In this document: in pieces, positions 4,441 through 25,738 of the stretch
Numbering within the stretch: the stretch's first letter is position 1
Layout of the letters: the number at the start of each line of letters is the position of its first letter
DNA from: an uncultured Alphaproteobacteria bacterium
GTDB taxonomy: Bacteria > Pseudomonadota > Alphaproteobacteria > Rs-D84
Assembly (NCBI GenBank): GCA_963540515.1
Contig: CAUTNA010000001.1
Span: forward strand, 74,699 to 138,698
Direction of reading: 5' to 3'
DNA length: 64,000 bases
Translations under genes and position numbers: made by a program
Notes under the pieces: model-generated
Told to the model about the DNA's origin: nothing
Databases searched by the model: none
The model's input: only the letters and a program-made list of their open reading frames with translations

Positions 4441-4839
4441 ATGAAAGAAATTATATTAGAAAATCTTGAAAAAACAAAACAATGGTCAGAAGATTTTGCA
4501 AAAAAAATTAGAAAACCTCAAACAATTGCTTTATACGGAACTTTAGGAATTGGAAAATCAGAAATTGCAAGAAACATCATAAAAACCCTTAAAGGTAATG
4601 ATACAGTTGTACCAAGTCCCACTTTTACAATTGTTCAAAATTATGATGGAATTTCTCATTTCGATTTATACAGAATTAAAGACGAAAGTGAACTAATAGA
4701 AATTGGTTTATTAAATTCCATTGAAAATGATATCACCTTAATAGAATGGCCAGAAATAGCAAAACATTTATTACCTAAAAACACAATACATATATATATT
4801 AAAGAATTTAAAAATGGTAGAAAAATAAAAATTATTTAG
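4441..4839 (+). CDS. tsaE: tRNA threonylcarbamoyladenosine biosynthesis ATPase TsaE
   Basis: P-loop ALYGTLGIGKSE, SPTFTIVQNY and HFDLYRI motifs. 132 aa. Confidence 0.8.
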   Translation: MKEIILENLEKTKQWSEDFAKKIRKPQTIALYGTLGIGKSEIARNIIKTLKGNDTVVPSPTFTIVQNYDGISHFDLYRIKDESELIEIGLLNSIENDITLIEWPEIAKHLLPKNTIHIYIKEFKNGRKIKII

Positions 4840-6601
4840 ATAATAAATTCTGAATAGTCATTGATAAATCATTAGATTTATATATAGAAGAAGAACAAAC
4901 TATAAAATCAGCTCCTGCATTCCAACAAATTTTTGAATATTCTTCTGTAATATCTCCACAAACTATTATATTAAATTTAAGATCATACTTTCTTCTAGTA
5001 TTTACCAAAATTATTATTTTATTAACAATATCTTTATTAAATTTATCAATTTCTGAACCAGAGTTAGAAGACATAATAAAAATATCATCTATCATTTTCA
5101 AAAAAGGTTTGATTAATAATATTTTTGTAGAAGGTTCTATTGATATACCAACTTTTTTACCTAGTTTTTTTATTTTATTTAAAATATTATACACATTATT
5201 TATTTCAAGTGGAATAATTATACCATCAACACCTATTTTAGATAGTTGTTTTATTAAAGTATTTGGATTTATCATCATTAAATGAACATAAAAATAACCC
5301 GATATTTTTGATTTTATATATTCTATTTCTTGTATACTTCCATATATTCTGTTAACAAAAAAACCATCCATAATAGTTGTATAAAAAAAAGATAAATTTA
5401 AAGATTTAAATAAATCTAATTTTGAATTATCACTTAAATCAAAATCTTTTATATTTAAAATTATTGGATTTAAAAAATTTTTTTGTTTTTTAGAAAAAAA
5501 CTTAAATACAGAACTAAAAAGTTTATCCCTTCTATTTTTTTTATTTATATATCTTAAGAATGATTTTATTTCATTTTTAAAAACATATTCAGATAAACTT
5601 TTTATCGTAGCTTCTGTTCCAAGATTTACAGAATTAATATTAAACCAATCGTTAAATATGGTTTTTATATACTTTCTATTTGATCCTGATACAAATATCT
5701 TATTAACATTATGTTTTTTTAAACACTCTGAAATTTCATTTTCAAAAATACTTAATAATTCTCTATATGCAGATAAAATTATTTTTTTTAATTCTTCTTT
5801 TGTAAAATCAAATTTATCGCTTACAGGAAAATATCTATCATTTTCTTCTATTGATAAATTTATAATTTCTTTCTCCATTAAATAAGCATCTTCAAAATTT
5901 ATATTTAATGTATTTAAAATCTTTTCAATCACAAAATTTTTTCCAAATTTTACAGTCTTAAAAAATACAGGACCTGTTTCCTTCCAAATTGATAAATTTG
6001 TAAAATCATTTTCTAAATTAACAATTAAACAAACATCTTCTTGTTTTCTATATTTTTGAGCAATTACAAAAGAACCGTCCAATATAACTTCTAGCTCTAA
6101 TTTTGAATGATACAAATAAGAATATATTTTCTGTAAATCAGGTTTATTATATGCAATCACACTAAAAATAGAACCTAAGTTATAATCATCAATACCTATT
6201 GGAGATTTTAAATTTTTATTATTATCTGTAGTATATTTTATAGGAATAATATGAATTGGTAAATAATCAGGATTATCTTCTTCATTTTTAATTAACAAAT
6301 GATCAATTTGTTTTTTTATATCATTTGAATTTATTTTATGTAAAATATTTTTATATAAACATTTTTTTTTATAAAAAATAGTATTTTCAATATTTGATAC
6401 AACATAAGCGAACTCAAATCTTGTATTTATTTTTTTTTCAAGCTCATCTAATATTTCCTTTATTGCGTATTCAGCATTTGAATTCTCTATAGATAATATC
6501 TCTGACTGAACTATTTTAGCAGAACGAATTTTATGAGCTAATCCATAAACAATTCCCTCTCCTATACTTAAAAATAAAACCTCAGATTTAGATAATTTCA
6601 T
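4832..6601 (-). CDS. Fusion protein. N-terminus is a degenerate FtsA-like (actin-fold cell-division) domain. C-terminus is a degenerate ribulose-phosphate 3-epimerase (Rpe)-like TIM-barrel domain.
   Basis: Lies immediately downstream of ftsQ with a 4-nt ATGA overlap. The N-terminus reads VLFLSIGEGIVYGLAHKI where FtsA has LDIGTSKI, and its phosphate-2 motif is weakened (IFVSGSNRKY). The C-terminal ~215 aa carry Rpe hallmarks (IMDGFFVN, YVHLMMINP, GVDGIIIPLE, MSSNSGSE, GADFIVCSSSIY), but several metal ligands are substituted. One uninterrupted 589-aa ORF. Confidence 0.5.
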   Translation of the reverse strand: MKLSKSEVLFLSIGEGIVYGLAHKIRSAKIVQSEILSIENSNAEYAIKEILDELEKKINTRFEFAYVVSNIENTIFYKKKCLYKNILHKINSNDIKKQIDHLLIKNEEDNPDYLPIHIIPIKYTTDNNKNLKSPIGIDDYNLGSIFSVIAYNKPDLQKIYSYLYHSKLELEVILDGSFVIAQKYRKQEDVCLIVNLENDFTNLSIWKETGPVFFKTVKFGKNFVIEKILNTLNINFEDAYLMEKEIINLSIEENDRYFPVSDKFDFTKEELKKIILSAYRELLSIFENEISECLKKHNVNKIFVSGSNRKYIKTIFNDWFNINSVNLGTEATIKSLSEYVFKNEIKSFLRYINKKNRRDKLFSSVFKFFSKKQKNFLNPIILNIKDFDLSDNSKLDLFKSLNLSFFYTTIMDGFFVNRIYGSIQEIEYIKSKISGYFYVHLMMINPNTLIKQLSKIGVDGIIIPLEINNVYNILNKIKKLGKKVGISIEPSTKILLIKPFLKMIDDIFIMSSNSGSEIDKFNKDIVNKIIILVNTRRKYDLKFNIIVCGDITEEYSKICWNAGADFIVCSSSIYKSNDLSMTIQNLLSK

Positions 6602-7279: not shown

Positions 7280-7660
7280 TTACTTAGCTCTTAATAAATA
7301 ACCATGCTTAAACATACATTTTCTGTATGCCCCAATTGATTTAGAGCTCGAATTTGGAGGAACAGACATTAACGATCTTTGTCCTATATCTGCATACTCA
7401 TTAGATTGAAAAGTAACCCACAAACCATTCCATTTTGGCATTTGAGGGCTTTGATTAGGAGATAATAATTTTGCTATACGAGATCTTGGCATATGAGAAG
7501 GAGTGTCTACCCCCAAACAACTTTTATGATCTCTAACAAACTGTTCTGCAGTTACAGCATCATTTTCCCAATTTAATATAGTTGCATCATCTATACTTCC
7601 ACTATTTACAGATGCACAAGAAGATAATAATAAAAATAAAATTAATTTATAAAATTTCAT
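7280..7660 (-). CDS. Small Cys-containing lipoprotein of unknown function
   Basis: Signal peptide with lipobox LLLSSC. 126 aa. No recognisable catalytic motif. Confidence 0.4.
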   Translation of the reverse strand: MKFYKLILFLLLSSCASVNSGSIDDATILNWENDAVTAEQFVRDHKSCLGVDTPSHMPRSRIAKLLSPNQSPQMPKWNGLWVTFQSNEYADIGQRSLMSVPPNSSSKSIGAYRKCMFKHGYLLRAK

Positions 7661-7725: not shown

Positions 7726-8049
7726 ATGTCTGAATTAGCTGTTAATAAATTTATAAGTTTAATAAAATTTTACAATCAATTGATGAGTGTATCTTCTGCA
7801 ATATGTGTAAAAAAACATGGGATTCCTATGGAAAATTATATTGGAAGATTTTTTATTGCAGATACACTTGAGTTTATTACAGAGTTTGGTAAAAAACTTG
7901 ATGATGATAAATTATTAGACAATTCTTTAAAAGAAGCTCTAGAAAACTTGATAATTCAATTCGAATCTGCAAAAGATTTGGTTACACCAACTCAAAAACC
8001 AGTTTATGAAATGACATTAGAAGAATTTGAAAAAGTTATGAATATTTAA
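7726..8049 (+). CDS. Hypothetical cytoplasmic protein, co-oriented with and 2 nt upstream of the secretin-like gene
   Basis: 107-aa ORF with no transmembrane segment or signal peptide. Its stop at 8049 is directly followed by the start of the next ORF at 8052. Confidence 0.35.
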   Translation: MSELAVNKFISLIKFYNQLMSVSSAICVKKHGIPMENYIGRFFIADTLEFITEFGKKLDDDKLLDNSLKEALENLIIQFESAKDLVTPTQKPVYEMTLEEFEKVMNI

Positions 8050-8051
8050 TT

Positions 8052-9386
8052 ATGGAAAAACATACAATGAATATTTTTTTTAAATTAATAATCTTTTTAA
8101 TTATTCCATTTCTTTTGTATTCTTGTAATAAACAAAATGGAAGCTCTGATTATAAAACTGTAAATGTTTATGAAAATTTAGTTGTTAGTGAGAACTCAGT
8201 TCCTATTTTTCCGAAAAAAGCTGCTCTTACAACAGATACAGCAAGAAGATTTTCAATTGATTTACCAAAAAGATGTACAGTTGATTGGAATAACCAGAAT
8301 GTATTTTCTATAATACCGGAAGAAAAAGTTGAAATAATTCGTCTAAATAAAGGAGATGAATTACCTAATTTAAATGTTTCAGAATATGAATTTTCAAATA
8401 TAACTGTAAAAGAAACTTTAGAAAAACTTCTAGAAGGAACAGATATAGATGTTGTTCAAGATGAACCTACTTCTGAAAAAATATCAGGTTTTATAAAATC
8501 AGGAACTCTTTCAGATTCTTTAGAGTTAATTTCTAAAATGGGAAAAATTTATTATTCCTATGATAACGATTCCAAGGAAATTCATTTGTCTGGTCATTCA
8601 AAATGGCTTATGAAAATGCCAAAGGATGAGAATATTATTATTGCTTTAATAGATGCTATGCATGGATTAGATATGAGAAATTTACTTGTAGATTGGGAGG
8701 ATAAAACTCTTGTTTTTGAAGGAAACTTTCAGACAGAAAAAGAAGTTCAAAAAATAGTATCTGCTTTTAGTTCAAAAAAAACTTTGATTGCTTGGGATAT
8801 AGATATTTATCGTGTATATCCAAGAACAGATAATCCTATTGTTTGGATGAATATATTGTCTGCTTTTGGTAATAATAATATAAAAATGTCTGTTCCTGGT
8901 GTTGTTGGAAGAATGTTAGTTGTAAGCCCAGAAATAAATACAAAAACACTACAAAAATTTTTGTATGGTCAAGCAAATGTTGTATTAATATCTCAAGGTA
9001 CTTTTATATTACCAGATAATTGGCAATCAAGATTTGATATAGGACAATGTAGTAGAGAAGAAAGGTTAGAAACAGATCTTATAATAGGAGCAACTGCAAA
9101 ATATGCAGATTTTGCTGGTAGAAATAAAATTGATGCAAAAATTGTTTTAAGAACAAAACGAGGAGAATTATCTTCTTTTAGAGTTCCAACAAAAATAGGT
9201 GATAACTATGTAATAATTGGTATTCCAACACATTCTTTTGTGAATACTGAGAAAACTATAATAAACCCATTCTCTGAATTAGTTGTATTTATGAGTCCAA
9301 GACTAATATCTATTTCTGAAGGTATAAAAGATATGCCAAAAACAGAATTATCTGGAAATGCACTTAGAGAATATCTTAACGAATAA
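8052..9386 (+). CDS. Secretin-like outer-membrane lipoprotein (type IVb pilus / T2SS family, BfpB/PilN/RcpA-like)
   Basis: Signal peptide plus lipobox (FLLYSC). Has an N-terminal secretin N0/STN-like segment (NITVKETLEKLLEGTDIDVVQDE...ISGFIKSG). The C-terminal secretin-domain signature is present (ANVVLISQGTF...RVPTKIGDNYVIIGIPT...ELVVFMSPRLISI). 444 aa. Confidence 0.55.
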   Translation: MEKHTMNIFFKLIIFLIIPFLLYSCNKQNGSSDYKTVNVYENLVVSENSVPIFPKKAALTTDTARRFSIDLPKRCTVDWNNQNVFSIIPEEKVEIIRLNKGDELPNLNVSEYEFSNITVKETLEKLLEGTDIDVVQDEPTSEKISGFIKSGTLSDSLELISKMGKIYYSYDNDSKEIHLSGHSKWLMKMPKDENIIIALIDAMHGLDMRNLLVDWEDKTLVFEGNFQTEKEVQKIVSAFSSKKTLIAWDIDIYRVYPRTDNPIVWMNILSAFGNNNIKMSVPGVVGRMLVVSPEINTKTLQKFLYGQANVVLISQGTFILPDNWQSRFDIGQCSREERLETDLIIGATAKYADFAGRNKIDAKIVLRTKRGELSSFRVPTKIGDNYVIIGIPTHSFVNTEKTIINPFSELVVFMSPRLISISEGIKDMPKTELSGNALREYLNE

Positions 9387-9394
9387 GGTAAAAT

Positions 9395-10651
9395 ATGTTT
9401 TCAAAACTAGAATCTAAAATAGCTTTTAGATATTTATTTACAAAAAGAAGAGAAAAATTTGTTTCTATAATTTCCTGGGTATCTTTAATTGGAATAATGT
9501 TGGGTGTTGCAACACTTATAATAGTTATGTCTGTTATGAGTGGATTTCATGATACACTACTTTCAAGAATAATTGGTATGAACGGTCATATTGTTATATA
9601 TCACCAAGACGGTACTATTAAGGATTATGATTATTTAATTGATAAAATTAAAAGAAATAAAACTATAGATACTATGACAAAATCAATTATTCCAATAGCG
9701 GAAGGACAAGTTATGATTTCTGCAAATGGAAATAACAGTGGCGCTATGATAAGAGGTATAAGAGTACAAGATTTAAAAAATAAAACTTTAAATAAAACAA
9801 AAATATACGGAAAAAAGATTGAAGATTTACAAGAAAATGAATTAGTAATTGGAGCTGTACTTTCAAGACAACTTCGAGCCAGTCTTGGTGATAAAATTTC
9901 TCTGATTTCTGCAAACTCTGCATCAAGTACAGTTTTTGGAACAATTCCAAGAATAGTATTATATCCAATTGTTTCATCTTTCTTTATAGGTATGTATGAA
10001 TATGATTCTGGATATATATTTTTACCTCTTCAAACTGCTCAAAAATATTTAAATATAGAAAATAGTGTAACTCATATAGACTTATATTTAAAAAAATCTG
10101 AATCAACAGATTTAGTCAGAGATGAACTTATAAATTTACTACCTAGTGGTTTTGTTGTAAGAGATTGGAAAGATTTAAATAGTGGTTTCGTTGGTGCATT
10201 AAAAGTTGAGAAAAATGTTATGTTTTTGATTTTAATGCTAATAATAATTGTAGCGGCTTTTAATATTGTATCAAGCTTGGTTATGCTTGTTAAAGATAAA
10301 ACAAAAGATATTGCAGTATTAAGAACTTTTGGGGTACCAAGAAAATCTATGATGAAGATATTTATTTTAACAGGAACAAGCATAGGAATTATTGGATCTG
10401 TATTAGGAGCTATACTTGGTATAATAATAACTTTAAATATAGAAAATATAAGAAGATTTTTACAATGGTTAACAGGTAAGGATTTATTTCCTGCTCAACT
10501 ATATTATCTATCTGAATTACCAGCAAAATTAACTTATTCTTCTGTATTGGGTATAGCAATAACTGCAATTGTACTTGCGTTTTTAGCAACACTTTATCCG
10601 GCTTGGAAGGCATCTAATACAGATCCTGTAAAAGTATTAAGAAATGAATAA
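9395..10651 (+). CDS. lolC: Lipoprotein-releasing system permease LolC/LolE (FtsX-like)
   Basis: Four-TM FtsX-fold permease with a large periplasmic loop. Starts MFSKLESKIAFRYLFTKRREKFVSIISWVSLIGIMLGVATLIIVMSVMSGF. Directly upstream of lolD. Confidence 0.85.
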   Translation: MFSKLESKIAFRYLFTKRREKFVSIISWVSLIGIMLGVATLIIVMSVMSGFHDTLLSRIIGMNGHIVIYHQDGTIKDYDYLIDKIKRNKTIDTMTKSIIPIAEGQVMISANGNNSGAMIRGIRVQDLKNKTLNKTKIYGKKIEDLQENELVIGAVLSRQLRASLGDKISLISANSASSTVFGTIPRIVLYPIVSSFFIGMYEYDSGYIFLPLQTAQKYLNIENSVTHIDLYLKKSESTDLVRDELINLLPSGFVVRDWKDLNSGFVGALKVEKNVMFLILMLIIIVAAFNIVSSLVMLVKDKTKDIAVLRTFGVPRKSMMKIFILTGTSIGIIGSVLGAILGIIITLNIENIRRFLQWLTGKDLFPAQLYYLSELPAKLTYSSVLGIAITAIVLAFLATLYPAWKASNTDPVKVLRNE

Positions 10652-10669
10652 TTATATTGGTTAAATACT

Positions 10670-11365
10670 ATGATAAATGTAAAAAAATTTACTAATGATA
10701 TTGTTTTAAGTGTCCGCGATATAAAAAAAGATTATATAGAAGCAGGAAACAATTTAAAAATTTTAAAAGGTGGTGGCTTTGATTTACACAAGGGAGAAAT
10801 AATTGCTTTTGTTGGACAATCTGGTTGTGGTAAGTCTACACTTTTGCAATGTATTGGACTTCTTGACAGACCAACAAGTGGAAGTATTTTGATAAACGGA
10901 ACTAATATTCAAAATATGGATGAAGAAACTAGAACTAAATTAAGAAGAAAACAAATAGGATTTGTTTATCAAAGACATAACTTATTATCAGATTTTACTG
11001 CACTCGAAAATGTAATACTCCCTATGATGGCAAATGGAACAGATGAAATAATAGCAAATGTTAAAGCTAAAAAACTTTTAAAATCTGCTAATATTTTACA
11101 TCGATATAACCATTATCCAAGTGAGATGTCAGGTGGAGAGCAACAAAGAGTAGCTATTGCAAGAGCGCTTGCAAATAATCCTGAAATATTATTAGCAGAC
11201 GAACCAACTGGTAATTTAGACCCATCACATGCTAATATAATTTTTGATTTACTATTTGAATTAGTTAGAAAAAATAAAATGGCTATGCTTTTTGTAACAC
11301 ATGATATGAATTTAGCAAAAAAAGCAGATAGAGTTATAACTATTGTAGATGGAATAGTAAAATAA
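10670..11365 (+). CDS. lolD: Lipoprotein-releasing system ATP-binding protein LolD
   Basis: ABC ATPase with Walker A GQSGCGKST, signature LSGGEQQRVAIARAL and Walker B ILLADEPT. 231 aa. Confidence 0.9.
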   Translation: MINVKKFTNDIVLSVRDIKKDYIEAGNNLKILKGGGFDLHKGEIIAFVGQSGCGKSTLLQCIGLLDRPTSGSILINGTNIQNMDEETRTKLRRKQIGFVYQRHNLLSDFTALENVILPMMANGTDEIIANVKAKKLLKSANILHRYNHYPSEMSGGEQQRVAIARALANNPEILLADEPTGNLDPSHANIIFDLLFELVRKNKMAMLFVTHDMNLAKKADRVITIVDGIVK

Positions 11366-11641: not shown

Positions 11642-12283
11642 ATGAAAATTGAATATCTAAAGCAAGATTTAAAAGAAGTTGAGAAAAATTTTGCATATAT
11701 ATTGATGAGCAAGACTATTTGTTTAGATTTTTATAGAGCTTTAAAAGAACAAAAAGTAAAACATAATCTATTTATTAATTGGGTATTTTTAAATTATCAA
11801 GATATTATTACTTTAGATCTGTGTAAAATACTAGAAGAAAAGAAAAAACATTATTCTTTAACCAATTTTATAAAAAATCTTATAAAAAATTATGATTCTT
11901 TTACAATAAAAATTAGAGAATTTAATAATAAACTATCAAATTTTAAAATTGAAGAAATCAAAAAAAATTTTCCTAATGTTGATAATTATGATCCTAAAAT
12001 TCCTGAATTTAATATACCTGTATCAGATTTTGAATATGATTTGAAACAAATAAAAAATATTCATAATAGATTAATAAAATATCGTAACAAAAAATTATGT
12101 CATAATGATATATCTAAAGAATACAAAGATGTATCACCAGAAAAAATAAAAACATTACACTCTTATATAGATAAAATAGAAAGTATTATTATCAAATATC
12201 TTCGAATATTTAACATTTATATGGATTATGATATTTTAAAAAAAGAAAATTATTATAATAATTTCAAATTTGAGCTAAAATAA
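11642..12283 (+). CDS. Hypothetical protein with an Rx5H (HEPN-like) motif, placed directly after the tRNA-Gly/tRNA-Tyr pair
   Basis: 213-aa ORF starting 20 nt after tRNA-Tyr. Contains ...NIHNRLIKYRNKKLCHND..., which fits R-x(4-6)-H. No other recognisable domain. Followed by ~440 bp of non-coding DNA. Confidence 0.4.
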   Translation: MKIEYLKQDLKEVEKNFAYILMSKTICLDFYRALKEQKVKHNLFINWVFLNYQDIITLDLCKILEEKKKHYSLTNFIKNLIKNYDSFTIKIREFNNKLSNFKIEEIKKNFPNVDNYDPKIPEFNIPVSDFEYDLKQIKNIHNRLIKYRNKKLCHNDISKEYKDVSPEKIKTLHSYIDKIESIIIKYLRIFNIYMDYDILKKENYYNNFKFELK

Positions 12284-16649: not shown

Positions 16650-17216
16650 ATGAAATTTAAACTTTTATATTTTGGAGAAATTTTTACAAATCCTAAAAGA
16701 AGAACAAAACATATTTCTGATATACGTATGCAATTTCATCCACAACTAAAAAAGTTAGTTGAACATAGCCCTTGGTTAAATTTAAAAAAATATATGTATC
16801 CTAATGTATCGAAAAATTTAACAAGTTCAAAATTTATTTGTGGCACATATTGGAATCCTATTATAACTCCAAAATTAAAATTAATAGCTGAACTTGATAT
16901 ACAAATGTTACATCCAGAAATAGTTGGAGTTGCACGATCAGATATAGATAATAGAGTAAAAACTCTATTGGATGGGCTTAGATGTCCACAAACAGAAAAA
17001 GAAGTTTCTGAAGAAATGTATGATTATAAAGAACCTGTTTTCACACTATTAGATGATGATCATCTTGTTACAAAAATATCTGTTAATACAAGTCATCTCT
17101 TATCAAATGAAATTTTTAAAAATAAATCTTTATCTTCAGATTCAATATTTATGCTAATAAATGTAAATGTAAGAGTCTCAGAAGGTAATTTAGAAAATTT
17201 ACCTTTTATGATCTGA
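16650..17216 (+). CDS. Hypothetical protein
   Basis: 188-aa ORF between gyrB (divergent) and the pilC-like gene (convergent). No recognisable motifs. Confidence 0.35.
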   Translation: MKFKLLYFGEIFTNPKRRTKHISDIRMQFHPQLKKLVEHSPWLNLKKYMYPNVSKNLTSSKFICGTYWNPIITPKLKLIAELDIQMLHPEIVGVARSDIDNRVKTLLDGLRCPQTEKEVSEEMYDYKEPVFTLLDDDHLVTKISVNTSHLLSNEIFKNKSLSSDSIFMLINVNVRVSEGNLENLPFMI

Positions 17217-17237: not shown

Positions 17238-18308
17238 TTAATTTAAATTTGTCATTATTTGATCTTGAATTTGAAAAGTTCCAAGTACTACCCATGCAAT
17301 TATAAAAGAAACCAGAATTATACCAATAGTATTGATTGTACTAGATATAGATTCTGCCTTTCTAATACTATTTTCAAGATAATCTTCGGCTATCTTCGAT
17401 ATATTTTCATTAAAATTATTCATATCTGAATAAATAGCAAGATCTCCTATTATTTCATCGTTTGGGAAATGAGTTTTTGAATTCTCAAGAGCAATACCTA
17501 AATTATCACCATTCGCAACATTATGCATCACGGATTGTAAAATTTTATTCAAATATTTATTAGAATTTTCAGATAATAATCTTAATGCTAAAGATAAACT
17601 ACAACCACTCGATAACATAGCAGATAAAGAAATCATCCAACTTACACCCAAATAAACCTTATATAGGTTATAAGGAGGAATTTTATCAAATATAGTTCTT
17701 ATAAAACCTGACCAATTCTCTAAACTAATCCATACAAAAAATATAACTAAAAGAATACCTATAACTAAAAAATCCCAATAATTTTTTGTAAAATTAGAAA
17801 CATCTAATAAAATAGATGCATTTCCAGTTAAATTTTCAGTTGTACCAATAGCATCAATAAGAGGTGGTATTAAATATATACCCGACATTATTATTATTCC
17901 AAAAGTTAAGATAAATAAAAATAGTGGATATGAAACAGCCGAAAAAACAGCTCTTTTTATTCTTCTAACAGAATCTATAATTTTTGAGATATTATCTAAT
18001 GAAACTGCTAATTTTGAAATATCACCACTTGATAAAATAAGATTTTCTGTATCTGAAACCCAACCTTTTGTTGCTTCAGCAAAAGAATCTCCATTTTCAA
18101 GATTTTTTTGCCAAGATTTTACACAGATAGCAAAAGGCTCTGAATTTTTAATACCACCTTTAGATTCAATTAACTCTATTCTTCTAAGAGCTTCCATAAG
18201 AGTAAAATTATTTTTTAATAATGAAGATATTTTTCTATATAAAGATAACCTTTTTTCAGTATCTAATTTAAATATAAGTTTTGCGTATAATAAATCTAAA
18301 AAAAACAT
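17238..18308 (-). CDS. Type II secretion / type IV pilus platform protein (GspF/PilC/TcpE-like, T2SSF domain)
   Basis: 356 aa. Two cytoplasmic helical domains are separated by TM helices (SYPLFLFILTFGIIIMSGIYLI; FLVIGILLVIFFVWI), with a C-terminal TM (IGIILVSFIIAWVVLGTF). This is the GspF topology. Immediately downstream of the secretion ATPase. Confidence 0.7.
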   Translation of the reverse strand: MFFLDLLYAKLIFKLDTEKRLSLYRKISSLLKNNFTLMEALRRIELIESKGGIKNSEPFAICVKSWQKNLENGDSFAEATKGWVSDTENLILSSGDISKLAVSLDNISKIIDSVRRIKRAVFSAVSYPLFLFILTFGIIIMSGIYLIPPLIDAIGTTENLTGNASILLDVSNFTKNYWDFLVIGILLVIFFVWISLENWSGFIRTIFDKIPPYNLYKVYLGVSWMISLSAMLSSGCSLSLALRLLSENSNKYLNKILQSVMHNVANGDNLGIALENSKTHFPNDEIIGDLAIYSDMNNFNENISKIAEDYLENSIRKAESISSTINTIGIILVSFIIAWVVLGTFQIQDQIMTNLN

Positions 18309-19937
18309 TTAATATATCCCCGGTTGATCTATTAAACCTACCCATCTTTCTAATTCATCAATAGAAATAATTCCTTTTAACATTAATTCAATAGCAGATT
18401 CTTTTAAAGTTCTTCCATCTAAATTTTCAAGCCAATATCTAGTTGCAGATTTTGTATCTCCAGATAAAGCAAGATTTAAAAATTCTCCATCAGTTATTAT
18501 AATTTCTCCAGCTTTTATTCTTCCGTTTGTTCCCTTATTTTTACAATTATCACAACCACAACCTTGTATATAAATCTGTTTTAAACCAATTTCTCCAAAA
18601 GCATCTTTTACCCTTTTATAAGCAGGATGTTCTGGATTATCGATTAATTTTTTCTTACACTTAGGACATAATTTTTTAAATAAACGCATAGATACTAAAC
18701 CTCGCATCATCGTTTCATCTTTTAATTTAAAAGATTCTACACCAATATCTAATAATCTAGTTAATGCAGTCATAGCAGAATTAGCGTGTAAAGTAGTCCA
18801 AACATTATGACCAGATAAAGCTCCTTTTACAGTTAATTGAGCAACTGATAAAGTTCTTATTTCTCCAACCATTAAAGTATCAGGATCGCTCCTAAGAGCA
18901 GCAGCTAATGCCTCTGTAAATTTTTCTTCTCTTTGCTCTTCATTAGAAGTATTAATAACAGGAATTTGATGTGCTCCAAATATTTTTTGTTCTGCAGGAT
19001 CTTCAACTGTTATAAGATTTATTTCATAATTTTTCTCTTTAAGTAAAAGAGACATATTTCTTACTAAAGTAGTAGATTTTCCAGAACTTGTAGGTCCCGC
19101 AACAATAACAAGACCAGTTGGATAAGAACGCAATCTCATTAAAAGTTTTTGTTCATATTCTCCAAACTCTTGTTCTGTTTTTATTCCTTCTGTTGGATTA
19201 TCATAAAGTAATCTCATAACAACATATCTACTACCAAATGCAATTGGATTGAATTGCATTCTTATACCTATAATTCCATCAGGTAAATATAAATCTTTTG
19301 TCCCTCTAAGTGGAGTTCTTCCATCTTTTTGAGCAGATTGATACTCATTCTGAGCATAATTAGAATTTGAAATATCAGACGAAGCAAACGCAGCTCTTAC
19401 AAAAGATTCTCCCCAACTTGAACTATACTCAAAAACAGATTGAATACTACCATCTATTCTAAAATAAATAGTTGTTTGATCAGATACATCTATGTGAATA
19501 TCAGATACTTTTTTTGATACAGCTTTAGATATTATATCAATAAAATCTTTCTGCATTTGATTATCAAACTCTATTTTTAGTCCACCATTTAATTTAATTT
19601 CATTTGTTTTATATATACTTGAAATCAAACTAATATCACAATAATAAGGTTCCAAATGAGTTTTGTTTTTTTTATTTAGAAGTTCTAGAAAAGCTAAGAC
19701 TCTTCCATCATATTGATGATTTCTTGATATTATAATTTCACCACCAGAAAAATAAGCTATTAAATTTTGTGAATCTTTAGATATCTCTAAATCAGCACCT
19801 GTTGAAGTCAACAACTTATTGTTATTAGAAAATAGATAATCTATTATTTCTTTAGAAGAATTTTCCATTGCTTTTGGTATAGAAAAATTCTCTTTCTTTT
19901 TTTTATATTTTAAAGAAAAAGATGTATTATTCATCAA
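18309..19937 (-). CDS. GspE/PilB-family secretion ATPase with a C-terminal tetracysteine zinc finger
   Basis: N2-domain SDIHID, Walker A VIVAGPTSSGKSTTL, Asp box TVEDPAEQ, Walker B LMVGEIRTLSVAQ, His box GHNVWTTLHANSA. Tetracysteine CPKC...CGCDNC. 542 aa. Confidence 0.9.
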   Translation of the reverse strand: MMNNTSFSLKYKKKKENFSIPKAMENSSKEIIDYLFSNNNKLLTSTGADLEISKDSQNLIAYFSGGEIIISRNHQYDGRVLAFLELLNKKNKTHLEPYYCDISLISSIYKTNEIKLNGGLKIEFDNQMQKDFIDIISKAVSKKVSDIHIDVSDQTTIYFRIDGSIQSVFEYSSSWGESFVRAAFASSDISNSNYAQNEYQSAQKDGRTPLRGTKDLYLPDGIIGIRMQFNPIAFGSRYVVMRLLYDNPTEGIKTEQEFGEYEQKLLMRLRSYPTGLVIVAGPTSSGKSTTLVRNMSLLLKEKNYEINLITVEDPAEQKIFGAHQIPVINTSNEEQREEKFTEALAAALRSDPDTLMVGEIRTLSVAQLTVKGALSGHNVWTTLHANSAMTALTRLLDIGVESFKLKDETMMRGLVSMRLFKKLCPKCKKKLIDNPEHPAYKRVKDAFGEIGLKQIYIQGCGCDNCKNKGTNGRIKAGEIIITDGEFLNLALSGDTKSATRYWLENLDGRTLKESAIELMLKGIISIDELERWVGLIDQPGIY

Positions 19938-19940
19938 AAA

Positions 19941-20600
19941 TTAATTTTTACTTATATTTAAAACTTGTGTTTCATCATTTTTTATAAAAACAATTCCTTC
20001 ATCTAAAGATATAGATTTAATTTCAAAACCATCTACAACTTTACCAACAGAAACTTTTTTTTGTCCACCTGTCCTTAAATCTTCTATTTTTGCTTGAAGC
20101 TCACTTCCAACACCAACTATATCAATTAGTTTATAAATACTAGAAATATCATCTAATCTTTTTAGAACTTTATTTTCTACTTTAGAATTTGAACTAGAAT
20201 AAGAATTTTTTTGACTCACAAACCTTTGTTTTTCTTCTTCTAAAGAAGCTTTTTCTTGAGCAAGTCTTTCTTTTTCTTGTTCTAAATCCTGTTTTTGCTT
20301 TTCTTCCATATTAACAAGATTTTCCATTTCAATATTCAACTTTTTCTTTTCAGAATTTACTCTCTCTAAATCTAATTCTAATTGAGCTTTTTCCTTTTTC
20401 AACTGAATTAAGACTTTTTCTTGTTCTAAATCTGTTATTTTTTTAAATAAAGAATCTTCTGTATTATAATTCAATACAGCTTCATCACTTGTATTATTTT
20501 CTAATAGATTTTCTTGCGTATCTTCCTCTGCAAAAGAAAAATTACAATTAAATATAAAAATACTAACAATAACAAAGTATTTTATAAAACTATTTTGCAT
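19941..20600 (-). CDS. Periplasmic coiled-coil protein with C-terminal beta domain (GspC/PilP/GspM-like accessory, putative)
   Basis: Signal peptide, then a long Glu/Lys heptad coiled coil (EEKQKQDLEQEKERLAQEKASLEEEKQRF), then a C-terminal domain KVSVGKVVDGFEIKSISLDEGIVFIKNDETQV. Overlaps the upstream ORF by 11 nt, implying an operon. Confidence 0.4.
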   Translation of the reverse strand: MQNSFIKYFVIVSIFIFNCNFSFAEEDTQENLLENNTSDEAVLNYNTEDSLFKKITDLEQEKVLIQLKKEKAQLELDLERVNSEKKKLNIEMENLVNMEEKQKQDLEQEKERLAQEKASLEEEKQRFVSQKNSYSSSNSKVENKVLKRLDDISSIYKLIDIVGVGSELQAKIEDLRTGGQKKVSVGKVVDGFEIKSISLDEGIVFIKNDETQVLNISKN

Positions 20601-21855
20601 ATATTATCACCTCATAATTCCAAATCTTAGATTCTTCTTTCCAAGATATATTTGTAAAATAAACACCTTCAAAATTTTTAAAAATTTCTATAAACTGTAT
20701 AGGAGTCAATTTAGAAGAAAAAGAGATCTCTAAAATATTTAAATTTATAATATTCTCTCCATCCTGAATTGAATCTATAGCGATATTTGTATTTAAACTT
20801 TCTATAAAACTTTTTTGTAAAATACCAACAATTTGTCTCTCTATAAACTTTATATCTCTTTTATCCTTAGAAAATATTTTTTCCACCTCTGGAATTTTAA
20901 TTCTCAATAGAATTTCTGAATCTGATTTTTCTTCTATTTGTACACCAGGAAAATGCTTATAAACAAAATCATAAAAGTCTTTAATATTACCAAAAGTTCT
21001 TTTAAAAAAAACTGATGCGTAATAATCATTACAATTAACTTCTGTCTGACTCCAACCAACAACTGACTGCATTAAAAAATTAATACTTTTATAACAAGAA
21101 TTTATATATGAAGTTAAAACAGGTAAAGATTCATAAGGTAATTTTATTGGTTCTTTTATCAATTCATCAATTTTAAAATCTTTATCTAGCTCTTGATTTT
21201 TTTCTTCCAATTGTTTTTTATATTCTTCTGCGAGAGTAGGATCTATTTTAGAAATTTGTTTTCTGTTAATTAAAGAATCTCTTATAGGTTCTTTAAAAAA
21301 GGAAAATAATCCAAATAAAAAAAATAATAAAATAAGAAAAGAAAAAATATTAGAACCTAAATTACTTATTGGTTTTAATAAAAACTTCGTATTTGTAAAA
21401 ATACTATTATTTAAATCTTTTTCTATTCCACCTTCAATTTTCCAAGATGATGGAGCAATAAAAACACCCCAATCAGGCATTTCTTTTAATTTTAAATATT
21501 CATCATAAGCATCTTCTTCAGACAAAAAAAGTTTATCATAAATAATAATATTATTTCTTACTGCTACTAACCAAATTTCTTTTTTTAATTTAAAAGCACA
21601 TAAAAAAGAATATATCTCTTTAAAACTTTTTATAAGCTCAATCGCAGCAACAGGCATATTATTTTTATGCCCAAATTTAGAGGAACCAAGCCCTATAATT
21701 GTTCTGTAATCAACATAAAAATTTAATTTTTTATCAACAGATTTTACTAATTGCTTTGCATAATTTTTTGGTAAAATACCACCAGGTAATGGTTGCCAAA
21801 ATAAACCGACTGCATATTTTTTTTTATTTATAAATATTGTTTTATTTTGCAACAA
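20590..21855 (-). CDS. Bitopic inner-membrane assembly protein: cytoplasmic domain, one TM, periplasmic domain (GspL/BfpC/PilM-N-like, putative)
   Basis: 421 aa. Cytoplasmic domain of ~165 aa, one TM (IFSFLILLFFLFGLFSFF), periplasmic domain of ~235 aa. The topology and the position next to the ATPase match GspL-type partners. No sequence-level confirmation was possible. Confidence 0.35.
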   Translation of the reverse strand: MLQNKTIFINKKKYAVGLFWQPLPGGILPKNYAKQLVKSVDKKLNFYVDYRTIIGLGSSKFGHKNNMPVAAIELIKSFKEIYSFLCAFKLKKEIWLVAVRNNIIIYDKLFLSEEDAYDEYLKLKEMPDWGVFIAPSSWKIEGGIEKDLNNSIFTNTKFLLKPISNLGSNIFSFLILLFFLFGLFSFFKEPIRDSLINRKQISKIDPTLAEEYKKQLEEKNQELDKDFKIDELIKEPIKLPYESLPVLTSYINSCYKSINFLMQSVVGWSQTEVNCNDYYASVFFKRTFGNIKDFYDFVYKHFPGVQIEEKSDSEILLRIKIPEVEKIFSKDKRDIKFIERQIVGILQKSFIESLNTNIAIDSIQDGENIINLNILEISFSSKLTPIQFIEIFKNFEGVYFTNISWKEESKIWNYEVIIYAK

Positions 21856-21924: not shown

Positions 21925-22320
21925 TTAATAAGTTATACCACTTAACTCTGGTGAACCATAGGATGAATTTTTACTATCTGATACAGTCTTTATATATCTT
22001 GGGTTTGGACAATCATAAACATTAGCATTTAGAACAAAAGCTCTTTCTGGTCCAAAAACTACCCATTCATTTGGTCTTGTTCTTTGACTTGTTATCATAT
22101 AAGCATTACCTGGACGAGATTGATCAACTATTTTATTTTCTAAATATCTTCTAGCATCATCAACATCATAAACAGAAACTTCAGATTCTATTTTATATAA
22201 GTAAGTACAACCAATTGGTTCTGATTCTAATTTTACTAGATTTTGACTCCCATTCTCGTTTTTAACCAAACTACTACAACCACTAAGAAAAAATATAAAT
22301 AAACAACATATTTTTTTCAT
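21925..22320 (-). CDS. Small lipoprotein (possible pilotin/accessory)
   Basis: Lipobox FFLSGCSS. 131 aa, with internal Cys residues. Sits between lpxC and the secretion-system genes. Confidence 0.4.
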   Translation of the reverse strand: MKKICCLFIFFLSGCSSLVKNENGSQNLVKLESEPIGCTYLYKIESEVSVYDVDDARRYLENKIVDQSRPGNAYMITSQRTRPNEWVVFGPERAFVLNANVYDCPNPRYIKTVSDSKNSSYGSPELSGITY

Positions 22321-25120: not shown

Positions 25121-25738
25121 TTATTTAATACATTTTTTAATTCTAATTTCTGGATCATTAAAATCAACTTTCTTATTTCTTATCTCTTCTTCTGTTTTTA
25201 TAAATCTTTTCATTAAAATAATATCTGGATGTGTTATTATTTTTAAATTAAAAAAATCAAAAGTTTTTTCTAATTCACTTTCATCTTTTATAAAAATAGG
25301 TGTTATTGAATTAGCTGCTGAAAAAATTGATTTTTCTATTTTATTTTTACTTTCTTCTATTATTGATATATATGCTTTTATATGTTCATCTTCATGATTT
25401 AATATTGCATTATACATACAAGATCCTGGTATATGTCTTGAATCTATTTTAACTAAAAAATCACTATAACCAATTTTTGCATTAATAGATTTTAATATTA
25501 CACAAAAACCATTCTTTTTTTTTACTCTATTTATAACTATTTCATAATTTTCAGCAAAAGTTGCAATAACATTACCATGAAGAAAATTCATAGGTTTTAA
25601 TGGTTGTACAACCTCTTTTTTCCAAATAGGAGAAGTTAAAATAATATTTGGATTAATCTTATACTTTAAACAATCATCTGAAAAACAATTTGTTATAAAA
25701 AAAAATATATATAAAACAAAAATAAATATTTTATTCAT
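25121..25738 (-). CDS. Secreted protein with an HExxH (HEDEH) motif, putative Zn-metallopeptidase-like (DUF922-like)
   Basis: Signal peptide. NAILNHEDEHIKAY contains HExxH. Immediately downstream of virB4, with an 8-nt overlap. 205 aa. Confidence 0.4.
   Translation of the reverse strand: MNKIFIFVLYIFFFITNCFSDDCLKYKINPNIILTSPIWKKEVVQPLKPMNFLHGNVIATFAENYEIVINRVKKKNGFCVILKSINAKIGYSDFLVKIDSRHIPGSCMYNAILNHEDEHIKAYISIIEESKNKIEKSIFSAANSITPIFIKDESELEKTFDFFNLKIITHPDIILMKRFIKTEEEIRNKKVDFNDPEIRIKKCIK

What the first reader, a model, noticed from the sequence alone, without database searches (positions are those of the whole stretch)
7726..9386. Secretin-like lipoprotein with an upstream partner next to lolCD; candidate outer-membrane channel for the distant PilB/PilC-like genes
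The 444-aa lipoprotein has an N0/STN-like segment (NITVKETLEKLLEGTDIDVVQDE...ISGFIKSGTL) and a C-terminal secretin signature ending ELVVFMSPRLISI. It is lipidated, like BfpB/R64-PilN/Tad-type secretins, and it is too short for a classical GspD. It is separated from the ATPase/platform cluster by 8 kb that include gyrB and tRNA genes, and it is translationally coupled to an uncharacterised 107-aa cytoplasmic protein. Sitting immediately 5' of lolCD hints at coupling to lipoprotein trafficking.
Basis: partly seen in the sequence, partly recalled or inferred. Interest (0 to 1): 0.6.

Follow-up and report, generated by a model that had tools for sequence, protein, structure and literature searches.

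The report
Gate-truncated lipoprotein secretin, unannotated family
The 444-residue lipoprotein is a real but very divergent relative of the outer-membrane "secretin" channels. Standard domain databases miss it, it appears to lack most of the usual channel gate, and it most likely serves a type IVb pilus-like machine in a tiny-genome gut bacterium, although that pairing is not proven.

Summary
ORFs 7726-8049 (107 aa) and 8052-9386 (444 aa, lipobox Cys25) sit 2 nt apart, directly upstream of lolC/lolD-like genes. The organism is a Candidatus Enterousia-like alphaproteobacterium (order Rs-D84, genomes of about 0.75-1 Mb).

No Pfam, NCBIfam or PDB sequence model recognises the 444-aa protein. Pfam Secretin hits 0 of 32 family members. 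It is nevertheless a secretin homologue:
- Profile-profile comparison with Pfam-positive BfpB-like lipoprotein secretins gives 99.9% probability (E=2e-37).
- The AlphaFold2 model has pLDDT 84, and its best 30 Foldseek PDB matches are all secretins, with BfpB on top.

The architecture is lipobox, LG-like linker, N0, N3, then a secretin domain about 60 aa shorter than normal. The Gate 1 loop is cut from about 30 to 13 residues, and Gate 2 and the VPxLGxIP-type motif are deleted.

The 107-aa protein is a conserved partner. Its domain lies immediately upstream of the secretin gene across the whole family.

The PilO2-PilP-ATPase-platform module 8 kb away has no secretin of its own and co-occurs with this gene in the clade, but it is never adjacent to it. 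More distant family members sit in a different conserved cluster with no pilus ATPase. The pilus-channel role is therefore plausible (about 0.5), not shown. I rate it a new variant of a known kind.

The parts
7726..8049 (+). p107: 107-aa all-helical protein with no signal peptide. It is the conserved upstream partner of the secretin-like gene and is homologous to the C-terminal domain of the 400-500-aa 'Y' proteins of distant relatives.
8052..8126 (+). Signal peptide and lipobox of p444 (LLYS-C25); Cys25 is the predicted acylated residue.
   Evidence: Sequence. The lipobox Cys is conserved in most of the 32 aligned homologues but absent in the most distant ones. The +2 residue is Asn here, but Asp, Ile, Gln, Ala, Val or Ser in homologues, so the E. 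coli +2 rule is uninformative.
8127..8381 (+). LG-like linker region (aa 26-110). It has a disordered stretch, then short helices and two short strands before N0, and carries invariant R74 and C75.
   Evidence: AF2 secondary structure and pLDDT. Invariant columns in A1. Architecture compared with the BfpB LG domain as described in PMC12531336. The equivalence is inferred, not tested.
8385..8591 (+). N0 (STN-like) domain, aa 112-180.
8598..8774 (+). Single N3-type ring-building domain (beta-alpha-beta-beta-alpha), aa 183-241.
   Evidence: AF2 secondary structure. Aligned to the corresponding region of BfpB-like secretins by hhalign.
8781..9317 (+). Shortened secretin domain, aa 244-422. The first outer-barrel strand, a short lip region and the terminal strand ELVVFMSPRLISI are present. 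The Gate 1 loop is reduced to about 13 aa and contains invariant C333. Gate 2 with its following strand, and the G-P-rich motif, are deleted.
   Evidence: hhalign A1 vs A3: probability 99.94, E=2.2e-37, with three deletions. Domain length is 165-179 aa against 229-245 aa in the nearest classical secretins. The A3 HMM aligns p444 only up to the start of the gates and again at the C-terminal motif. Gate boundaries come from f1 pIV (Gly267/Gly297, Asp321-Asn335; PMC8563730) and from the BfpB alignment. All Foldseek hits with E<=1e-3 are secretins.
9395..10651 (+). lolC/lolE-type lipoprotein-release permease, same operon (8-nt gap).
   Evidence: Pfam MacB_PCD and FtsX. Follows the secretin gene in 76 of 80 species loci and in the 44%-identical lineage L085.
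10670..11365 (+). lolD-type ABC ATPase, same operon.
   Evidence: Pfam ABC_tran, E=3e-36. Synteny.
20590..21855 (-). Type IVb pilus protein PilO2 (421 aa, bitopic). First gene of the candidate partner machine.
   Evidence: Orthologues carry PF06864 and are named 'type 4b pilus protein PilO2' by NCBI. The module is conserved in L088 and L089.
19941..20600 (-). PilP-like protein (219 aa): N-terminal anchor, coiled coil and C-terminal beta domain. It is the candidate binder of the secretin N0 domain.
   Evidence: NCBIfam TIGR03021 pilP_fam, E=4e-6 and 27.9 bits, below the cutoff of 34.65. Any interaction with p444 is inferred only.
18309..19937 (-). GspE/PilB-type assembly ATPase (542 aa).
   Evidence: Pfam T2SSE, E=7e-65. 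NCBIfam GspE and PilB models. 77-78% identical to the orthologues in L088 and L089.
17238..18308 (-). GspF/PilC-type platform protein (356 aa).
   Evidence: Pfam T2SSF, E=1e-22.
21925..22320 (-). 131-aa lipoprotein directly upstream of PilO2, in the position where R64-type clusters carry the secretin. Role unknown.
   Evidence: ORF and lipobox. No family hit. Conserved position and 64% identity in L088 and L089.

Best explanation
p444 is a highly derived member of the secretin superfamily, of the lipoprotein (BfpB/PilN/TcpC, type IVb pilus) class.

Proposed mechanism:
1. It is exported by Sec and acylated at Cys25. This step is inferred from the lipobox.
2. It is carried to the outer membrane by the LolCD transporter, which is encoded in the same operon. 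This step is inferred.
3. It oligomerises through its N0 and N3 ring domains and its shortened beta-barrel domain into an outer-membrane ring. This step is inferred from homology and the predicted fold.
4. The ring most likely serves as the outer-membrane conduit of the PilO2-PilP-ATPase-platform machine at 17.2-21.9 kb. That machine is conserved in the clade and has no secretin of its own. This pairing is inferred from co-occurrence.

The Gate 1 loop is cut to about 13 residues, and Gate 2 with its following inner-barrel strand is deleted. The channel should therefore have a much-reduced inner barrel and central gate.

The 107-aa helical protein is a dedicated cytoplasmic partner conserved across the whole family. 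Its role is unknown. A regulatory or scaffolding role is a guess.
For: Secretin homology:
- Weak phmmer hits are Pfam-verified lipoprotein secretins.
- hhalign of the family against them gives probability 99.94, E=2.2e-37, over residues 83-427.
- Those relatives are closest to BfpB among PDB sequences: E=1.6e-30, against 2e-15 for GspD and 4e-4 for RcpA.

Fold:
- The AF2 model has pLDDT 84.4.
- The 30 Foldseek hits with E<=1e-3 are all secretins, BfpB first, and include secretin-domain-only structures.

Architecture: lipobox, about 85 aa of linker, N0, one N3 domain, secretin domain, no S-domain. This matches the BfpB description in PMC12531336.

Partner machine:
- PilO2, PilP-like and T2SSE/T2SSF form a module conserved in L088 and L089 without any secretin gene.
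- No other secretin homologue lies in the 64-kb window.

Conservation: p444 has 66.6% median identity, comparable with LolC (70.7%), UvrB (69.4%) and the ATPase (77%). This indicates strong purifying selection on a working protein.
Against: - No curated model recognises the protein.
- The gate-forming segments that define the double-walled secretin barrel are largely missing, so channel behaviour may differ or be absent.
- The secretin gene is never adjacent to the pilus module. The module lies within 10 kb of it in none of 80 species loci, at 8 kb in this window, and at an estimated 17 kb (pieced together from two loci) in one relative.
- In five other lineages the family sits in its own cluster (HTHx2, X, Y, secretin, Z) with no T2SSE, T2SSF or PilO2 within 8-10 kb.
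- No pilin or prepilin peptidase was found in the window.
- Oligomerisation, membrane location and the partnership itself are all untested.
Confidence: 0.5

Rival explanations
1. The protein is the outer-membrane ring of a separate, undescribed envelope system, unrelated to the pilus ATPase module. That system is defined by the conserved cluster: double-HTH regulator, X, Y, secretin-like protein and bitopic protein Z, often next to VirB6/TrbL-like membrane proteins. Enterousia would keep only a minimal version of it, namely the Y-domain protein p107 plus the ring.
For: - The Y domain is immediately upstream of the secretin-like gene across the whole family.
- HTHx2, X, Y, secretin and Z are conserved in order in L087, L090 and L091, and partly in L085 and L086.
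- No T2SSE or T2SSF lies within those loci.
- The window also encodes a VirB4.
Against: - X, Y and Z have no ATPase motif, so no energy source is evident.
- X, Z, HTHx2 and the VirB6-like genes are absent within 10 kb in 80 Enterousia-clade loci.
- The nearest classical relatives are type IVb pilus secretins.
- The Enterousia pilus module needs a secretin and has none.
- The other genomes may encode pilus genes elsewhere; this could not be checked.
Confidence: 0.3
2. The ring works with the Lol pathway. It could act as an outer-membrane acceptor or insertase, or as a surface-export pore for lipoproteins, in a lineage that lacks LolB. This would explain why it is co-transcribed with lolCD.
For: - The secretin-lolC-lolD order is conserved in 76 of 80 species loci with gaps of about 15 nt, and in a 44%-identical lineage (L085).
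- Its conservation is comparable with LolC and LolD.
- From general knowledge, not tested here: LolB is absent from Alphaproteobacteria.
Against: - Three other lineages have the family without adjacent lolCD.
- As a lipoprotein it is simply a Lol substrate, and in about 0.8-1 Mb genomes tight packing of unrelated genes is common.
Confidence: 0.05
3. It no longer forms a pore. It would be a periplasmic or outer-membrane-anchored ring or scaffold that kept the N0 and N3 domains and a remnant beta-sheet, serving as a structural or anchoring element.
For: - The gate and inner-barrel segments and the conserved G-P-rich motif are lost.
- Pfam Secretin hits no member.
Against: - The outer-barrel strands and the terminal strand motif are retained and modelled confidently, with pLDDT above 90 over most of residues 244-422.
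- The family is under strong purifying selection.
- The Foldseek hits include secretin-barrel-only structures.
Confidence: 0.1

Closest known systems
BfpB, the lipoprotein secretin of the EPEC bundle-forming (type IVb) pilus (PDB 9u5s; PMC12531336)
   Same: - N-terminal lipobox and a linker region before N0.
- N0 followed by a single N3 domain and then the secretin domain, with no N1/N2 domains and no C-terminal S-domain.
- The Pfam-positive relatives of this family match BfpB best by sequence.
   Different: - About 10% sequence identity, with no direct sequence hit.
- The secretin domain is about 60 aa shorter, with Gate 1 truncated and Gate 2 deleted.
- No N3-barrel insertion is evident.
- It is not encoded inside a pilus operon, and no BfpG/TcpQ-type partner was identified.
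- Instead it has a partner without a signal peptide (p107).
R64/PAPI-1 PilN-family type IVb secretins (NCBIfam TIGR02520), with the pilL-M-N-O-P-Q-R gene order
   Same: - It is a lipoprotein secretin.
- The window's PilO2, PilP-like, ATPase and platform genes reproduce the pilO-P-Q-R order.
- The nearest Pfam-positive relatives hit TIGR02520 below its cutoff.
   Different: - p444 itself does not hit TIGR02520 at E<=1.
- The secretin gene is displaced 8 kb or more from pilO and sits in an operon with lolCD.
- A 131-aa lipoprotein occupies the slot upstream of pilO.
Classical gated secretins: GspD/PulD, PilQ, InvG, f1 pIV and RcpA (Pfam PF00263)
   Same: N0 and N3 domains, outer-barrel strands, the terminal strand motif, and overall fold similarity.
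   Different: - There is no PF00263 hit in any of 32 members.
- The Gate 1 loop is about 13 aa, against about 29 in pIV (between Gly267 and Gly297) and about 31 in the BfpB-like relatives.
- Gate 2 and the conserved Arg-bearing strand are absent.
- The VPxLGxIPxLGxLF-type motif is absent. That motif is recalled from general knowledge of secretins.

Membership tests
Secretin superfamily (Pfam PF00263 Secretin) | Significant match to the curated Secretin domain model | tested here: not met
   There is no PF00263 hit at E<=1 for p444, or at E<=0.1 for any of 32 family members. No NCBIfam secretin model hits it. No PDB sequence hit is found with the single sequence or the family profile.
Secretin superfamily (Pfam PF00263 Secretin) | Homology to bona fide secretins across the N domains and the secretin domain | tested here: met
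   hhalign of family A1 against Pfam-positive secretins A3 gives probability 99.94, E=2.2e-37, over 334 columns. The A3 HMM scores 105 bits on p444. Weak phmmer hits are Secretin+STN proteins.
Secretin superfamily (Pfam PF00263 Secretin) | N0 (STN-like) domain followed by at least one N3-type ring-building domain | tested here: met
Secretin superfamily (Pfam PF00263 Secretin) | [quoted passage not shown] | tested here: not met
   By alignment, Gate 1 is reduced to about 13 residues, and the Gate 2 segment plus its following strand (22 columns) is deleted. A further 12 or more columns carrying the G-P motif are also deleted. The domain is 165-179 aa against 229-245 aa. Gate positions are taken from PMC8563730.
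Secretin superfamily (Pfam PF00263 Secretin) | Assembly into a 12-17-mer outer-membrane ring | not testable with these tools
   Only single-chain prediction was available.
Type IVb pilus lipoprotein secretins (BfpB/TcpC/PilN class) | N-terminal lipobox, a linker (LG) region before N0, no N1/N2 domains and no S-domain | tested here: met
   Lipobox LLYS-C25. About 85 aa with helices and two strands precede N0, then one N3 domain follows, and the protein ends about 20 aa after the last strand. Compared with the BfpB description. Equivalence of the LG region is architectural only.
Type IVb pilus lipoprotein secretins (BfpB/TcpC/PilN class) | Encoded within the pilus gene cluster, next to pilO/bfpC-type, ATPase and platform genes | tested here: not met
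   The module is 8 kb away in the window. It lies within 10 kb in none of 80 species loci. Modules in L088 and L089 lack a secretin gene.
Type IVb pilus lipoprotein secretins (BfpB/TcpC/PilN class) | Match to the PilN-family model TIGR02520 | tested here: not met
   No hit at E<=1. Only the more classical relatives hit it, and below its cutoff.
Type IVb pilus lipoprotein secretins (BfpB/TcpC/PilN class) | Small periplasmic N0-like partner (BfpG/TcpQ) | tested here: inconclusive
   No TcpQ hit was found for the neighbouring small lipoproteins. Some distant relatives carry a fused TcpQ domain.
LolB-type outer-membrane lipoprotein acceptor | LolA/LolB-like unclosed beta-barrel fold of about 200 aa | tested here: not met

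The most novel reading that the evidence does not exclude
The family could be a gate-less 'mini-secretin' forming the outer-membrane part of a previously undescribed trans-envelope system. That system would comprise a double-HTH regulator, acidic scaffold proteins X and Y, the ring, and bitopic protein Z, and it would not depend on type II/type IV pilus ATPases. In the roughly 0.8-1 Mb Enterousia genomes it would survive as a core two-gene unit (Y-domain protein plus ring) co-transcribed with LolCD. It might then serve as a constitutively open conduit for uptake or export in an organism that lacks standard transporters.
Probability: 0.2. Interest if true: 0.75.

Novelty: new variant of a known kind. 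Interest (0 to 1): 0.55.

Why it matters
More than a thousand database clusters of this protein are labelled 'hypothetical' with no domain, in common gut Alphaproteobacteria of humans and livestock. Recognising them as secretins assigns an outer-membrane component to an otherwise incomplete type IVb pilus-like machine in a genome-reduced, apparently partner-dependent lineage.

The family also shows that the secretin fold may tolerate loss of most of its gate. That would be a natural experiment on how secretin channels are sealed and opened. In addition, it reveals a conserved cytoplasmic partner domain that has no counterpart in known secretin systems.

Tried and rejected
Searches that gave nothing or were uninformative:
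- Pfam and NCBIfam scans of p444, p107 and the neighbouring lipoproteins found nothing significant.
- PDB sequence searches with p444, the family profile A1 and the p107 profile A5 found nothing meaningful.
- A scan of viral contigs with the distant-member alignment found no relatives, so there is no sign of a phage origin such as an inovirus pIV.
- hhalign of Z against PilO2 matched only the transmembrane helix.
- A regular-expression search for prepilin-like ORFs gave only one spurious hit. Pfam on the other window ORFs found only housekeeping genes and no prepilin peptidase.
- Walker A motifs were sought in X and Y and none was found.
- HMMs for X, Z, HTHx2 and the VirB6-like proteins found nothing in the window or in 82 Enterousia-clade loci.
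- The promoter/terminator scan was no better than shuffled sequence in this AT-rich DNA.

Tool failures and limits:
- The AFDB50 fold library was unavailable.

Ideas rejected:
- The LolB-analogue idea, because the fold is a secretin and lolCD adjacency is absent from three lineages.
- The E. coli +2 sorting rule, because the +2 residue varies in homologues and includes Asp.
Full report
**What is there**

The window is about 25% G+C. Its closest relatives are MAGs of Candidatus Enterousia and other uncultured gut Alphaproteobacteria. This genus belongs to order Rs-D84, with genomes of about 0.75-1.0 Mb that lack the TCA cycle, respiration and standard transporters (PMC12306168).

The two ORFs of the finding are exactly as described. 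p107 (7726-8049) ends in TAA, and p444 (8052-9386) starts 2 nt later. lolC-like (MacB_PCD + FtsX) and lolD-like (ABC_tran) genes follow after 8 and 18 nt. p444 starts with a signal peptide and the lipobox LLYS-C25.

**Is it a secretin?**

Pfam Secretin, Secretin_N and STN give no significant hit for p444. The only hit is FecR_C, an N0-related domain, at E=0.0027. PF00263 hits none of 32 family members at E<=0.1. NCBIfam and PDB sequence searches also find nothing.

Three independent lines nevertheless show secretin ancestry.

1. An exhaustive phmmer search found 122 representatives. The weakest full-length hits are longer lipoproteins that Pfam recognises as Secretin + STN, two of them with a fused TcpQ domain.
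2. Profile-profile comparison of the family (A1) with those proteins (A3) gives 99.94% probability, E=2.2e-37, over p444 residues 83-427. The match covers the entire Pfam-defined secretin domain of the template. An HMM of A3 scores 105 bits on p444. A3 in turn matches BfpB best among solved structures: E=1.6e-30, against 2e-15 for GspD, 2e-9 for pIV and 4e-4 for RcpA.

**Architecture**

From the model's secondary structure and the alignments, the domains are:
- signal peptide and lipobox (residues 1-25);
- an 85-residue region, partly disordered, with short helices and two short strands (26-110);
- N0 (112-180);
- a single beta-alpha-beta-beta-alpha N3 domain (183-241);
- a secretin domain (244-422);
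- no S-domain.

This is the layout reported for BfpB, namely LG domain, N0, N3 and secretin domain, without N1/N2 or an S-domain (PMC12531336). Apart from the lipobox cysteine, which most but not all 32 aligned homologues retain, two cysteines are invariant: C75 in the linker region and C333 in the secretin domain. A disulfide between them is possible, but I could not check distances.

**What is unusual**

The secretin domain is 165-179 residues in this family, against 229-245 in the nearest classical relatives. The hhalign alignment shows three deletions.

- **After FDIG(331)xC.** In f1 pIV, Gate 1 is the loop between hinge glycines 267 and 297 (PMC8563730). In the BfpB-like relatives the equivalent glycines are about 31 residues apart. 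In p444 only about 13 residues lie there.
- **After GELSSF.** About 22 columns are missing. These correspond to Gate 2 (pIV Asp321-Asn335) and the following strand with the conserved arginine.
- **Before the last strand.** At least 12 columns are missing, where classical secretins carry their glycine/proline-rich motif.

The first outer-barrel strand, the helix before the second strand and the terminal strand (ELVVFMSPRLISI) are retained. By alignment, the inner barrel and central gate are therefore largely gone.

**The upstream partner**

p107 has no signal peptide or transmembrane segment and is predicted to be helical (single-sequence model, pLDDT 71). It has no family, PDB or informative fold match.

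It is nonetheless a genuine partner. In distant lineages the gene immediately upstream of the secretin-like gene encodes a 190-500-residue acidic protein, which I call Y. Its C-terminal domain is homologous to p107 (HMM E=5.7e-9; alignment A5 with invariant A25, C27, Y38 and D46). The Y HMM finds the ORF immediately upstream of the secretin gene in 79 Enterousia-clade loci.

**Gene context**

In 76 of 80 species-representative loci the order is lipoprotein-126(-), p107, p444, lolC, lolD, with gaps of about 15 nt. The median identity of p444 to these orthologues is 66.6%. That is similar to LolC (70.7%), LolD (72.8%) and UvrB (69.4%), and far above FtsA and FtsQ (about 30%). A lineage only 44% identical (L085) also has secretin-lolC-lolD.

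**The pilus-like module**

The module at 17.2-21.9 kb consists of:
- PilO2 (orthologues carry PF06864 and the NCBI name 'type 4b pilus protein PilO2');
- a PilP-like protein (TIGR03021, E=4e-6, below the cutoff);
- a GspE/PilB-type ATPase and a GspF/PilC-type platform protein.

This reproduces the pilO-P-Q-R order of R64-type type IVb pili, as I recall it from general knowledge. The module is conserved between lpxC/lpxK and gyrB in L088 and L089. It never carries a secretin gene; a 131-aa lipoprotein sits where one would be expected. The ATPase is 77-78% identical between genomes.

However, the module lies within 10 kb of the secretin gene in none of the 80 species loci. In one relative the distance is an estimated 17 kb, pieced together from two loci. 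No other secretin homologue, pilin or prepilin peptidase is present in the window.

**The complication**

In lineages where the family is 30-45% identical (other gut Alphaproteobacteria), it lies in a different conserved cluster (L087, L090, L091, L085, L086):
- a double-HTH regulator with a weak (sub-threshold) S24 peptidase-like hit, seen in L087;
- X, with a conserved N-terminal helix and an acidic low-complexity region;
- Y;
- the secretin-like protein;
- Z, a bitopic protein with a roughly 100-residue periplasmic domain carrying two conserved cysteines.

**Interpretation**

That p444 is a divergent BfpB-class lipoprotein secretin is well supported; I put it at about 0.9. That it is the outer-membrane conduit of the PilO2-PilP-ATPase-platform machine is the most economical reading for Enterousia: the machine needs a secretin, has none, and co-occurs with this gene. 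The reading remains circumstantial, and I give the full explanation, including this pairing, 0.5.

The main rival is that the family belongs to its own X/Y/Z system (0.3). A Lol-related function has no support beyond operon membership (0.05). A non-pore scaffold is possible given the missing gates (0.1).

**Novelty**

The family is unannotated and invisible to curated models. It has an atypical, gate-truncated secretin domain and a conserved partner without a signal peptide. I rate it a new variant of a known kind.

Noticed in passing
window 4832-6601 (-): A 589-aa protein fuses an FtsA-like N-terminal part to a C-terminal ribulose-phosphate 3-epimerase domain. The same fusion (590 aa) is present in a related genome (L001).
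   Followed up: partly
window 11642-12283 (+): A HEPN AbiU2-like gene (Pfam E=6e-6, just below the cutoff) is wedged between the tRNA-Gly/tRNA-Tyr pair and tRNA-Met. A homologue occurs in only 1 of 84 related loci, so it looks like a strain-specific defence-gene insertion at a tRNA cluster.
   Followed up: partly
window 25731-28133 (-) and 25121-25738 (-): A VirB4/CagE_TrbE_VirB-type ATPase (800 aa) with a 205-aa unknown ORF downstream lies about 4 kb from the pilus-like module. This tiny genome therefore also keeps type IV secretion parts, scattered among housekeeping genes.
   Followed up: no
window 7280-7660 (-): A 126-aa lipoprotein with no family heads the ftsQ-ftsA operon and is transcribed divergently from p107. 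It is very conserved in the clade (73% median identity, found in 81 of 84 loci).
   Followed up: partly
window 21925-22320 (-): A 131-aa lipoprotein with no family sits directly upstream of PilO2, where R64-type clusters carry the secretin. It keeps this position and about 64% identity in L088 and L089. It could be a pilotin or a BfpG-like partner.
   Followed up: partly
L087 737-4052; L091 1464-6270; L090 1-5065: Distant relatives of the secretin-like gene lie next to arrays of two or three paralogous polytopic membrane proteins. One of these has a TrbL/VirB6 Pfam match (E=1e-5), which is reminiscent of Rickettsiales-type VirB6 arrays.
   Followed up: partly
L092 11827-12960 (Erythrobacter aureus YH-07 plasmid NZ_CP031358.1, 334348-335481): A 377-aa non-lipoprotein distant relative of the family (A1 HMM E=2e-20) also has a short secretin-like C-terminus. 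It follows a 1304-aa membrane protein and is the only relative found in a cultured organism's plasmid.
   Followed up: partly
window 16650-17216 (+): A 188-aa protein of unknown function lies between gyrB and the platform gene. It is conserved in position and sequence (65-70% identity) in L088 and L089.
   Followed up: no
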